Shown in pieces: positions 54,001 through 57,000 of a stretch of DNA of 64,000 bases (position 1 is its first letter; every line of letters starts with the position of its first letter). Origin of the DNA: Podarcis pityusensis (lineage: Eukaryota); the NCBI GenBank assembly GCA_964106645.2, contig OZ067041.1, one strand, 5' to 3'. Position numbers: made by a program.

Positions 54001-57000
54001 AGCTCCCCTGGCCACAGGTATGTTTCTGGGCATAATTCAAAGTGCTGGTTATCACCTATAAAGTCCTATTTGGTCCAAGCTATCTGAAAGATCAGTTTTC
54101 CTCATGTGAACTTGTCCAGGTTTTGAGATCTTCGGGGGAGGCCTTTCTTTCAGTCCTGCAACCCTCACATGCCTGCTTGGTGGGGACACAGGAGAGGGCC
54201 TTCTCGGTGGCTGCTCCCAGACAACGTTGGAACTCCCTCCCAAGAGAAGCCAGACTGGCTCCCTCCTTGCTGTCCTTCCCCCAGCAGGTGAAGACTTTCT
54301 TGTTCCAACAAACTTTTGGGAACTGACTGTTTTTAATGAAAAGGCTGGTACCATGCTGTTTTTATTGTAATTATCTACAAGTTTTTATTAGATTTGCACA
54401 CAGACATTGTTTTAACTCTATCAATGTTTAATGGTTTTTCAATGGTTCCCCCCCCCCCCCCTATGCTTTTAGCTATTCCTGTTTTTATCTGTAAGTCACC
54501 TTGAGTCCCTGCCAGGGAAATGAATAATAAGAATAACAACAACACCTGTTGTTGTTGTTTACCAGGGATAAAGAACTGACTCTGGCTGGTGGGGGCTGAT
54601 AATACACTACCTCCCCCACCCTCTCATGGGCCAAGTTTGACTGGTGGACGAGGCCTTGATTATACATTTTTAAGTGCCACTGTGAAAGTTTGCCTTCACC
54701 CACTGAAATCTTGACCCTCATTGCTGAAATCCAAAATGGCATCCCTGCCCAAAGGAATTGAGCAATATGGAAACAGCAATATAGCTCTTCCGTTTTCAGA
54801 TGCCTGTATATTTTTCCTATGTAAAATTTAGCAAGCAATTGTCTTTTTTGCTCACACTGCTTCCAATTATCTTAGAGGGTTTAGGGCAATTCCCCCCTCC
54901 CTGTCTGTTCCTGATGGGCAGAATCAAATAGCCAACATTCTGAAGCCAGCTCGTCTTTGAGATGAAAGTCTCTGGAGAAAATCAAAGGCAGATGTGAAGA
55001 AATGTTATATTTGACTCTGGCCAGAACTCAGTGTAAAGAGCTGTGGCTGATCAATACTAGTCCTATTAATTCTGATCCTAGACGGATGATCATTGCCTCT
55101 GTTCCCTCCCCTGAGTTAAATTACTTTGAAACAGCACAAAAAAACTGTTCGCAGGCGCTAGTCAGAATCCATGTGAAAATATTTTTTCCCTAGACTGCCA
55201 AGCATAATTCATAGTTTTCACCAACTTAATAGGAGAAAATGTGGACACTTAACTGCACCATTCATGTACCTAACACAACTCCTCCAAAGTAGTTTGCAAT
55301 GATGAAGTAGGTCCCAGTGGTGCAATGCAAGGAAAAGCTTCACACATGGAGCCCGGCAGATTAAGCCTGCTACACTGAGAGATCTCGTAGTCGCCCTCTC
55401 CATGGGATCTTACACTTCCAACTGGCATTACTAACGACTGGTGGGCTGCTGTGAGCTCTTTTTGACATTGAATCTAACAACATTGCACTACAATGAACCA
55501 CCAAAGGGATAAGCATAACTTCTGCAAGGCACAATGAGAAACTGGAGAGCTATGAGTAATAGACCTCTAAAGGGATACATGTTCAGCTTACACCCTTGCC
55601 AGCTGGAGTGAAATGATACAGATTTAACTCCACTCGATCCATATACTTTTCATTGGCATTGATTCTGGCATCGGAAGGACTCTGGAGTTACCAGAGTATT
55701 TGACTCAAACCCAAAGTCAGAGTTTTGGAAGCAAGTGTGAATTGGTCGAAAGTGTTTCAGAAGCACACCAATTTGGCTTTGAGTCCAAAACCAGACTTAG
55801 AAAACACAAAGCTTCTAGCCTCACTCACTCTTCTGGGGACAATTTAAATTGGCCATAGCTACTGCTTCTTTTTACAGAAATGGATGAAATTTACGGGCAT
55901 AGTAACTACTTCTAAGCAAATAACATCTGCCAAATTATAAACTAATAGGTCTAGGATTTTTTGTCCTGAGCAACTTTGATTTTTTTAAAAAAGAATCACA
56001 AGTTGTTGTTTGTTTTACACACACTTGCAAAACTGGATGACATTTGCAAGCATGGCAGTCCCTTCTGAGGGAACAGATCTTCCCAAATTTCAGCAGAATG
56101 GTTTTGCATAAGCACAGCCTTTACAGTTTTTTAAAAATACAGTGGTACCTTGGGTTACATACACTTCAGGTTACATACACTTCAGGTTACAGACTCCTCT
56201 AACCAAGAAATATTACCTTAGGTTAAGAACTTTGTTTCAGGATAAGAACAGAAATTGCGCTCCGGCGGTGCAGCAGCAGCAGGGGGCCCCATTAGCTAAA
56301 GTGGTGCTTCAGGTTAAGAACAGTTTCAGGTGTGCTCGCTTCGGCAGCACATATACTAAGAACAGTTTCAGGTTGAGAACGGACCTCCGGAACGAATTAA
56401 GTACTTAACCCGAGGCACCACTGTAATATTTTTATTGGTTTTCATTATAACAAACATCTAACAATAAACATTAAGAAATAAAAAATAAAAATGTGAACAA
56501 CTGTATCATTTTGCATAATGTTTGTACATTCAATACAGTAGCAATATATGGGATTTCTCCAATCTCCCGACTTCCCTCTACCCCCTCCGTGGTTCCATTA
56601 TTTCATTGTTAAATTGTGCATGTCCAAATCATATTTCTATCCATTCATTTCTATTTTTATCTATTATGATAGTATTGCAAGTGTTTTTTTAGAATCTTGC
56701 TGATGTATTTACTTGTATACAATGCTTTGTCATATATGCAATAAAAGTTTCCCATTCATTTTTAAATTTGTTATCCTGATTTCTAAGTCTACCAGTTAGT
56801 TTGGCCATGTCTGCATATTCCATTAACTTAATTTGCCAATCTTTTTTTGTGGGAATTTTTTCCTCTTTCCTGCATTGGTCTATCAATATTCATGCGGCTG
56901 TAGTCGCATGGATGACAAGATTTTTATATATTTTTTGGTATTTCCCTTCCTATAATTCCTAATAGGAAGGCTTCTGGTTTATTAAGGAAGGTTATTTTAA

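What the first reader, a model, noticed from the sequence alone, without database searches (positions are those of the whole stretch)
56315..56373. Tailless U6 snRNA 5' fragment retro-inserted with a perfect 17-bp TSD
Seen: U6 nt 1-28 match exactly, with no poly(A) tail, and are bracketed by TAAGAACAGTTTCAGGT. The sister MITE at 27624-27849 has this segment only once, which shows the empty site. The pre-insertion site TT|AAGA fits the L1 endonuclease preference (TT|AAAA). The truncation falls at the internal U6 A-run (ACTAAAA), overlapping the TSD by TAA. Known: 3'-truncated U6 copies primed by microhomology are an L1-type TPRT product described mainly in mammals. Inference: a lizard LINE reverse-transcribed U6 RNA by internal priming, and the zero divergence implies this was recent.
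Basis: partly seen in the sequence, partly recalled or inferred. Interest (0 to 1): 0.72.

Follow-up and report, generated by a model that had tools for sequence, protein, structure and literature searches.

The report
Tailless U6 retrocopy in lizard transposon
A 25-28 base copy of the start of the U6 spliceosomal RNA was pasted into an old DNA transposon of a wall-lizard-like genome by a LINE reverse transcriptase; it is a clean but ordinary example of a kind of pseudogene already described in mammals and in the anole lizard.

Summary
Window 56332-56359 equals the first 28 letters of U6 snRNA as printed in a paper. There is no A-tail. A perfect 17-bp direct repeat brackets it (56315-56331 / 56357-56373), sharing TAA with U6 nt 26-28. 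The only other copy of the host transposon in the window (27624-27849) carries the segment once.

The anatomy fits a 3'-truncated "tailless" snRNA retropseudogene:
- It starts at RNA nt 1.
- It ends in the single-stranded U-AAAA stretch just after the 5' stem-loop.
- The target is TT|AAGAAC, with 3 nt of junction homology.

This class, made by L1 target-primed reverse transcription, is in print for mammals. Doucet 2015 counts 25 3'-truncated U6 copies in Anolis, and Noll 2015 found tailless forms in the anole.

The window looks lacertid: 22 of 23 relatives of a local L1 fragment are named Podarcis. That L1-clade fragment has its own perfect 16-bp duplication.

"Recent" is only loosely supported: 0 changes in 59 sites bounds divergence below about 5%.

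Not testable here: a genome-wide census, the orthologous empty site and read support.

Verdict: real, correctly read, low novelty.

The parts
56140..56423 (+). Host element: 284-bp non-coding TIR transposon (MITE-like, Tc1/mariner-type), flanked by TA at 56138-56139 and 56424-56425
   Evidence: Terminal inverted repeat arms of 30 nt, 80% complementary (I1). TA on both sides. No Pfam hit for the ORF across it, 56112-56408. One sister copy at 27624-27849, also TA-flanked. The family name was not determined.
56315..56331 (+). Left copy of the target-site duplication (17 nt at the longest reading, 14 nt if TAA is credited to U6)
   Evidence: 100% identical to 56357-56373. Present once in the sister copy.
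56332..56356 (+). U6 snRNA nt 1-25: 5' stem-loop plus AUAUAC. This is the unambiguous inserted cDNA.
   Evidence: Identical to the printed U6 primer and to the start of the printed U6 sequence. Folds as a stem over nt 1-19 with nt 20-28 unpaired, -9.5 kcal/mol, z -3.58. Unique in the window. Both CpGs are intact.
56357..56359 (+). TAA shared by U6 nt 26-28 and the target: junction microhomology, the inferred priming site
   Evidence: Printed U6 continues TAAAATT and the target continues TAAGAAC. The chance of 3 nt or more of junction homology is 0.051 by the Roth formula used in Doucet 2015.
56357..56373 (+). Right copy of the target-site duplication
27783..27799 (+). Paralogous 'empty site' in the sister copy of the host element (TCAGAACAGTTTCAGGT, present once)
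   Evidence: The alignment shows a 42-column gap in the sister exactly where U6 plus one repeat lie.
61157..61739 (+). Context, not part of the insertion: a 551-bp 5'-truncated L1-clade 3' end (61173-61723) with AATAAA, a 6-A tail and a perfect 16-bp target duplication. It shows that an L1-type machinery making duplications of the same length has worked in this genome.
   Evidence: Sequence. Repeat 61157-61172 / 61724-61739 at 100%. The ORF tail matches Podarcis ORF2-like proteins. The full-length relative P0008 aligns over residues 5-1218 with human L1 ORF2p at E 5.4e-180 and carries Exo_endo_phos plus RVT_1.

Best explanation
This is a tailless (3'-truncated) U6 snRNA retropseudogene.

Proposed sequence of events:
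1. An L1-clade LINE endonuclease nicked the bottom strand of an already resident MITE copy at 5'-TCTT/AA-3' (top strand TT|AAGAAC).
2. The freed T-rich 3' end paired with A27-A28 of U6 RNA, in the unpaired U-AAAA stretch just after the 5' stem-loop.
3. The reverse transcriptase copied U6 from about nt 26 to the RNA's first nucleotide and ran off.
4. A second nick 16-17 bp downstream on the top strand, followed by fill-in, produced the duplication.

The result is 25 unambiguous U6 bases, 3 shared bases, no A-tail and no LINE sequence. The copy has no U6 promoter and no function is expected.

Shown: the anatomy, the paralogous empty site, and the presence of an L1-clade element with a 16-bp duplication 5 kb away.

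Inferred: that L1, rather than another reverse transcriptase, did it; that priming was internal on full-length U6; and the exact nick position within the 3 ambiguous bases.
For: The insert starts exactly at U6 nt 1 and matches nt 1-28. This is what a run-off cDNA gives and what a DNA-level copy would give only by luck.

There is no tail and nothing lies between U6 and the repeat. The perfect 17-bp duplication lies within the up-to-20-bp range that PMC13295347 gives for LINE target duplications. It is close to the 16 bp of the L1 fragment at 61157-61739.

The orientation is right. The A-rich end of the target (TAAGAA) lies at the U6 3' side, while the other end (CAGGT|TGAG) is not L1-like.

Truncation falls in an unpaired, purine-rich stretch preceded by U. 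This matches the description in Doucet 2015 section 8 for 3'-truncated snRNA copies, including the T that ends up inside the duplication. Noll 2015 gives TT/WAAAAWW as the target consensus for tailless forms, with 2-18 nt of complementarity. Here the target reads TT/AAGAACA and the overlap is 3 nt.

The sister copy lacks exactly U6 plus one repeat.

L1-clade ORF2 genes with APE endonuclease and RT exist in the nearest named genomes.

The insert is probably younger than the host copy. The two MITE copies differ at 24 of 228 aligned ungapped columns (JC distance 0.113). The probability of 0 changes in 59 sites at half that distance is 0.035.
Against: This is a single locus with only one paralogous comparison. 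No orthologous empty site and no reads were available.

The target has G where the L1 consensus has A (TT|AAGA). The 3-nt overlap alone has about 5% chance expectation.

The one L1 insertion in the window has a non-canonical target (CAC|CAAACT), so the local L1 site preference is not established.

Other LINE clades are present in the same window: RT fragments at 60404-60769 and 61035-62420. Bov-B is abundant in Podarcis muralis, with 52,041 hits in Table 1 of PMC13295347.

Rfam gives no U6 call for the fragment.
Confidence: 0.75

Rival explanations
1. Same TPRT mechanism, but carried out by a non-L1 LINE of the lizard (Bov-B/RTE, CR1 or L2) acting on a non-cognate, tailless RNA.
For: RT fragments of other LINEs lie within 5 kb. 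Doucet 2015 found U6 chimeras with L1, L2 and RTE elements in Anolis, 3 each. Bov-B is very abundant in Podarcis muralis, and its cleavage site is T|A, which the site here also offers (GGTT|AAG or GGT|TAAG).
Against: The Bov-B signature is three T about 10 nt upstream of the duplication, with the element starting about 12 nt after the cleavage site. Here the upstream 12 nt are GTGCTTCAGGTT with only a TT, and the duplication is 16-17 bp. Doucet 2015 argues that stringent LINEs (L2-type) need their own 3' end, and found no 3'-truncated or poly(A) U6 copies where only L2 is active. Noll 2015 found tailless forms only where L1 is active.
Confidence: 0.1
2. The U6 piece was captured once by a master copy of the MITE and then spread by DNA transposition. 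This locus would then be one member of a U6-bearing MITE subfamily, not the site of the retro-insertion.
For: This cannot be excluded, because only 2 copies of the family are in the window. This copy also differs from the sister by a 16-bp tandem unit, so subfamily structure may exist.
Against: 1 of 1 sister copies lacks the piece. U6 plus both repeats show 0 changes in 59 sites. The body of the element differs from its sister at 24 of 228 sites and its terminal repeats are only 80% complementary. That pattern is expected if the insert arrived after the copy had aged (P 0.035 under equal age at half the pairwise distance).
Confidence: 0.1
3. The template was a pre-existing U6 5' fragment (nt 1 to about 28, cut by a nuclease) and was primed at its 3' end, rather than full-length U6 primed internally.
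For: The product would be identical. Moldovan 2019 raises endonucleolytic truncation of small RNAs as a possible route for truncated forms in chimeras.
Against: Noll 2015 looked for oligoadenylated truncated forms and for matching truncated small RNAs of 5S and U2 in human. They found no convincing signal and concluded in favour of internal priming. Nothing in this locus bears on the question.
Confidence: 0.15
4. Endonuclease-independent capture of a U6 cDNA or RNA-templated patch during repair of a double-strand break.
For: The insert is short and has no tail.
Against: A 14-17 bp duplication needs two nicks staggered by that distance, which blunt or near-blunt break repair does not give. The A-rich end of the target lies on the correct side for L1-type priming.
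Confidence: 0.04
5. Assembly or sequencing artefact, or a pre-existing 17-bp tandem duplication into whose junction 25 bp fell.
For: The element has internal near-repeats of TTCAGGTTAAGAAC (D1-D2) and a perfect 16-bp tandem unit elsewhere (56153-56184). Two other short tandem duplications exist in the window.
Against: An artefact would not create a perfect duplication around an insert that begins at RNA nt 1. Landing exactly on the junction of an earlier duplication is one position in about 280.
Confidence: 0.02

Closest known systems
3'-truncated snRNA processed pseudogenes (Group III of Doucet et al. 2015, formerly Class IV of Denison and Weiner), U6 subset
   Same: 5' full-length, heavily 3'-truncated, no A-tail, flanked by a duplication. 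Truncation lies in a single-stranded purine-rich segment preceded by T. There is short complementarity to the target, and the cleavage site resembles L1. In human, 12 of 12 3'-truncated U6 copies had duplications. In Anolis, 25 3'-truncated U6 copies are listed.
   Different: The host genome is apparently lacertid (Podarcis-like), not Anolis or a mammal. At 25-28 nt the copy sits at the 26-nt lower limit of that paper's pipeline. I could not see where on U6 the published copies end: that is in figure 3A and in per-copy data available 'upon request', and the supplementary PDF is not readable here.
Tailless retropseudogenes (Schmitz et al. 2004, recalled through citation only; Noll et al. 2015, PMC5322556)
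   Same: TPRT primed internally at A-rich loops. Target consensus TT/WAAAAWW, 2-18 nt of complementarity, dependence on a relaxed L1. The green anole is the only non-mammalian vertebrate where they were detected.
   Different: That survey's cross-species figure used 5S rRNA and U2. U6 is mentioned only as well represented in human. No lacertid was screened: the genome list names anoCar2 only.
U6/L1 chimeric pseudogenes (template switch or RtcB ligation; Moldovan et al. 2019, PMC6789731)
   Same: U6 in sense orientation at the 5' end of an L1-made insertion bounded by a duplication.
   Different: In the chimeras U6 is full length and is followed by a 5'-truncated L1 with an A-tail. Here U6 stops at nt 25-28 and no L1 sequence follows.

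Membership tests
Tailless / 3'-truncated snRNA retropseudogene | Starts at nucleotide 1 of the source RNA, in the sense orientation | tested here: met
   Window 56332 onward equals the printed U6 from its first letter.
Tailless / 3'-truncated snRNA retropseudogene | 3'-truncated with no oligo(A) and no retrotransposon sequence attached | tested here: met
   U6 nt 28 is followed directly by the rest of the repeat.
Tailless / 3'-truncated snRNA retropseudogene | Flanked by a target-site duplication (10 nt or more in Doucet's pipeline, 8-35 nt in Noll's) | tested here: met
   17 nt, 100% identical. Pipeline thresholds.
Tailless / 3'-truncated snRNA retropseudogene | Truncation in a single-stranded, A/purine-rich segment of the RNA | tested here: met
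   The fold of nt 1-28 pairs nt 1-19 and leaves nt 20-28 free. Printed U6 reads ACTAAAATT there. Only the 28-nt fragment was folded, not the U4/U6 or snRNP context.
Tailless / 3'-truncated snRNA retropseudogene | Complementarity between the target and the RNA at the 3' junction | tested here: met
   3 nt (TAA). This is weak on its own: P(3 nt or more) = 0.051.
Tailless / 3'-truncated snRNA retropseudogene | L1-like first-strand cleavage site (TT/AAAA; TT/WAAAAWW for tailless forms) | tested here: inconclusive
   TT/AAGAACA agrees at TT, W and 3 of 4 A, but has G at the third position and C at the first W after the A-run.
Tailless / 3'-truncated snRNA retropseudogene | Empty pre-insertion site | tested here: met
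   Paralogous only: the sister MITE copy has the segment once. The orthologous empty site is not testable with these tools.
Tailless / 3'-truncated snRNA retropseudogene | A relaxed L1-clade LINE present in the genome | tested here: met
   Presence shown by the L1-clade 3' end with a 16-bp duplication in the window and full-length Podarcis relatives with EN plus RT. Its activity and its relaxed template use are not testable here.
U6/L1 chimeric pseudogene | Full-length U6 joined to a 5'-truncated L1 with an A-tail inside one duplication | tested here: not met
   U6 ends at nt 25-28 and no L1 sequence lies inside the duplication.
   No U6 hit. A 28-nt piece is too short for the model. This says it is not a U6 gene, not that it is not U6-derived.
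Bov-B/RTE insertion signature (Tn-TA) | Three T about 10 nt upstream of the duplication, T|A at the nick, element starting about 12 nt after the cleavage site | tested here: not met
   T|A is available, but there is no T3 stretch in the 12 nt upstream (GTGCTTCAGGTT) and the duplication is 16-17 bp.
Tc1/mariner-type MITE (host element) | Terminal inverted repeats, TA duplication, short, non-coding, multi-copy | tested here: met
   30-nt arms at 80% complementarity. TA flanks on both copies. 284 and 226 bp. No Pfam hit. 2 copies in the window. The family name and the cognate transposase were not determined.

The most novel reading that the evidence does not exclude
The insertion was made not by L1 but by one of the supposedly stringent squamate LINEs (Bov-B/RTE, CR1 or L2) using a tailless, non-cognate RNA through 2-3 nt of microhomology. 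If so, template stringency in those clades would be leakier than the current relaxed-versus-stringent model allows. Short U6 heads could then serve as markers of their activity in lacertids.
Probability: 0.08. Interest if true: 0.45.

Novelty: new member of a known kind. Interest (0 to 1): 0.15.

Why it matters
It matters little on its own. It is a textbook-clean single example of L1-type trans-mobilisation of a nuclear small RNA without an A-tail, and it shows all the junction signatures.

Its modest value is taxonomic. The published non-mammalian record that I could find is the green anole only. A Podarcis-like lacertid would be a second squamate family with the "relaxed L1" hallmark that Noll 2015 predicted for lizards.

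A genome-wide tally of such U6 heads could date L1 activity in lacertids, in the way Doucet 2015 proposed for mammals. If still polymorphic, the insert would also be a homoplasy-free presence/absence marker.

Tried and rejected
Rfam. The whole window at gathering score gave 0 hits. 56100-56500 at E<=10 gave 0 hits. The 28 nt alone gave only mir-2217, 10.1 bits, E 4.5, which is chance. The whole window at E<=1 gave only MIR2646, far below gathering, and a bacterial CrcZ at E 0.95.

PDB sequence search with the 77-aa L1 tail gave nothing meaningful (E 0.76). The L1 assignment came from the full-length relative instead.

Pfam on 160 stop-to-stop ORFs of 75 aa or more (17, 143) gave RVT_1 in 2 ORFs and one weak sub-threshold hit. 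No host exon was found, so the gene context is unknown.

A script looked for other L1-type insertions in the window: perfect 12-30 bp repeats with an A-rich stretch before the second copy. It listed 13 candidates. One is convincing (61157/61724). One is an internal repeated motif of another element. The 12-13-mers were not examined further and are of a length expected by chance.

The bacterial promoter/terminator scan is irrelevant to a vertebrate locus and found nothing.

A loose literature search for Podarcis with LINE-1/snRNA terms listed no paper holding 'Podarcis' among its 12 rows. The strict search 'Podarcis' + 'U6 snRNA' found 1 paper, an unrelated review by its title.

No census of the genome was possible. 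The window is the only DNA of this organism on hand. The two closed collections were not used, and the remaining genome collection holds bacteria and archaea only, so it was not scanned.

The window has no N.
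Full report
**What is there**

Reading 56050-56550 gives, on the + strand...GTGCTTCAGGT | TAAGAACAGTTTCAGGT | GTGCTCGCTTCGGCAGCACATATAC | TAAGAACAGTTTCAGGT | TGAGAACGG...

The two 17-mers (56315-56331 and 56357-56373) are identical (family D4; script check). The 25 bases between them (56332-56356) are given as a U6 primer in PMC8760648 (passage seen). They are also the first 25 letters of the U6 snRNA sequence printed in PMC10045129 (passage seen). A full-text search found the 25-mer in 109 papers.

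The printed U6 goes on TAAAATTGG. The first three bases of the right repeat (TAA) are therefore also U6 nt 26-28, and identity ends at nt 29. No A-tail and no other sequence lies inside the repeats. The 25-mer is unique in the window with up to 3 mismatches allowed, and 0 of 100 shuffles gave a match.

Rfam does not recognise the piece. It is too short for the covariance model, so the U6 identity rests on the printed sequences. Doucet 2015 states that human U6 is conserved in lizard and bird genomes (methods).

**The host and the empty site**

The insertion sits in a 284-bp element (56140-56423). The element has 30-nt terminal inverted repeats that are 80% complementary and TA on each side, and no Pfam match. 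That makes it a Tc1/mariner-type MITE by structure. I did not determine its family name.

blastn against the window finds exactly one other copy, 27624-27849, also TA-flanked. In the pairwise alignment the sister lacks two things:
- a 16-bp tandem unit near the 5' end;
- one block of 42 columns, which is 25 nt of U6 plus one 17-mer.

The sister carries the segment once, as TCAGAACAGTTTCAGGT (27783-27799). Apart from these two gaps the copies are co-linear, and 284 - 42 - 16 = 226.

This is a paralogous empty site, not an orthologous one.

Exact direct repeats of 17 nt or more at 17-100 nt spacing occur at 3 loci in the window and in none of 100 dinucleotide shuffles. The other two (7270/7298 and 34678/34710) have 8 and 14 nt between the copies and look like plain tandem duplications. 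A close repeat by itself is therefore not proof of a target duplication. What sets this one apart is the identity of the insert and its absence from the sister.

**How it most likely arose**

The anatomy is that of a target-primed reverse transcription product made on U6 RNA.

1. The insert begins at the first nucleotide of the RNA, as a run-off cDNA does.
2. The A-rich end of the target (TAAGAA) is on the 3' side of U6. An L1-type nick of the bottom strand (5'-TCTT/AA-3', top strand TT|AAGAAC) would leave a T-rich primer there. The other end of the duplication (CAGGT|TGAG) has no such motif.
3. The primer could pair with A27-A28, with cDNA synthesis then starting at U26. The 3-nt ambiguity (TAA) is the trace of that pairing.
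4. The fold of nt 1-28 pairs nt 1-19 into the 5' stem-loop and leaves nt 20-28 free. The truncation therefore falls in the first unpaired, purine-rich stretch.
5. The duplication is 16-17 bp (14 bp at the shortest reading).

Doucet 2015 (sections 5, 8, 10 and 12 read in full) describes just this for 3'-truncated snRNA copies. Truncations lie in single-stranded purine-rich segments preceded by a T, and that T gets counted into the duplication. There is complementarity at the 3' junction, and the cleavage sites resemble TTTT/A.

Noll 2015 (passages and section 19 read) gives TT/WAAAAWW as the target consensus of tailless retropseudogenes. It reports 2-18 nt of complementarity and argues for internal priming.

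Steps 1-5 are read from the sequence. That L1 was the enzyme, that the template was full-length U6, and where within TAA the nick fell are inferences. The 3-nt overlap alone has a chance expectation of 0.051.

**Which genome, which enzyme**

Pfam on 160 ORFs of 75 aa or more (17, 143) found reverse-transcriptase fragments in 2 ORFs and nothing else above threshold. The two fragments lie at 60404-60769 (-) and 61035-61406 (+).

The + strand RT frame is interrupted at 61173-61723 by a 551-bp insert. The insert ends in AATAAA and six A, and is bracketed by a perfect 16-bp repeat.

The 77-aa ORF tail of that insert has 23 relatives at E<=0.001. Of these, 22 are named Podarcis (muralis, lilfordi, raffonei) and one has no name. 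The best is 95% identical. A 1245-aa relative (P0008) carries Exo_endo_phos plus RVT_1. It aligns over residues 5-1218 with human L1 ORF2p at E 5.4e-180.

So the window is very probably from a lacertid lizard of or near Podarcis. An L1-clade element has made an insertion with a duplication of the same length 5 kb from the finding. Its target (CAC|CAAACT) is not canonical, so I cannot state the local L1 preference from one case.

Other LINE clades are in the window too. By recall only, not tested, the 60404-60769 fragment looks RTE/Bov-B-like and the 61035-62420 frame looks CR1-like.

PMC13295347 (passages and section 13 read) gives the Bov-B signature in squamates. It is three T about 10 nt upstream of a T|A nick, with the element starting about 12 nt after the cleavage site. 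Here T|A is available, but the upstream 12 nt hold only TT and the duplication is 16-17 bp. Bov-B is therefore less likely, though not excluded.

**Age**

U6 (25 nt) and the two repeats (34 nt) show 0 changes in 59 sites. Both CpGs of the U6 piece survive in a window with CpG observed/expected of 0.22.

The two MITE copies differ at 24 of 228 aligned ungapped columns (JC distance 0.113). If the insert were as old as half that distance, no change in 59 sites would have probability 0.035. The 95% upper bound on its divergence is 5.1%. "Younger than the host copy" is reasonable. "Recent" in any absolute sense is not shown.

**Comparison with what is known**

The class is in print:
- Group III of Doucet 2015. 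Human U6: 12 3'-truncated copies, 12 of 12 with duplications (Table 1). Anolis carolinensis: 41 copies analysed, 16 repeat-associated and 25 3'-truncated, 20 with duplications (Table 2).
- Tailless retropseudogenes in Noll 2015, which found them outside mammals only in the green anole and predicted a relaxed L1 in lizards.

It is not a U6/L1 chimera. Those have full-length U6 followed by L1 (PMC6789731, passages; 10.1101/2025.02.02.635956, passages).

I found no paper on such copies in Podarcis. The search 'Podarcis' + 'U6 snRNA' returned 1 paper, an unrelated review by its title. The looser search listed none with that word among its 12 rows.

I could not see where the published Anolis copies end on U6. 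Figure 3A is not held, per-copy data are available 'upon request', and the supplementary PDF is not readable here. Noll's supplementary tables were not consulted. At 25-28 nt this copy is at the 26-nt lower limit of Doucet's pipeline.

**What stayed unchecked**

Only the window is on hand. I also could not count U6 heads in the genome, see the orthologous locus or see reads.

The window has no N.

**Verdict**

It is a new instance, probably in a new lizard family, of a known kind. Interest is low.

Noticed in passing
window 61157-61739 (+): A 551-bp 5'-truncated L1-clade 3' end (ORF2 C-terminus, AATAAA, 6-A tail) with a perfect 16-bp target duplication CAAACTGGGAGGGGTG. It is inserted into the reverse-transcriptase frame of another LINE. 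The target CAC|CAAACT is not the canonical TT|AAAA.
   Followed up: yes
window 60404-60769 (-) and 61035-62420 (+): Two reverse-transcriptase fragments on opposite strands (Pfam RVT_1, E 3e-10 and 8e-08). By recall they look RTE/Bov-B-like and CR1-like respectively, but the clades were not tested. Together with the L1 piece, this would put three LINE lineages within 2 kb.
   Followed up: partly
window 56153-56184: The host MITE carries a perfect tandem duplication of a 16-bp unit (GGTTACATACACTTCA twice, plus a third copy at 75%). The sister copy lacks one unit. This is either slippage or a subfamily difference.
   Followed up: partly
window 7270-7317 and 34678-34727: Two other exact close direct repeats: 20 bp with 8 nt between the copies, and 18 bp with 14 nt between. 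The first includes a palindrome (CACCTTAA..TTAAGGTG). They look like short tandem duplications, but a target duplication around a very short filler cannot be excluded.
   Followed up: partly
window 25560-25850 (-): The motif CGTCTTGCGAAGCA recurs four to five times within 290 bp. It is probably subterminal repeats of an unidentified transposon.
   Followed up: no
whole window: CpG observed/expected is 0.22 at 42% G+C. No Pfam-detectable host exon appears in any ORF of 75 aa or more, so the window looks like methylated, repeat-rich intergenic or intronic DNA.
   Followed up: partly
window 12432-12508 (-): Weak Rfam match to the plant miRNA family MIR2646 (36.9 bits against a gathering score of 245, E 2.6e-4). 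It is most likely a repeat-derived hairpin and not a member of that family.
   Followed up: no
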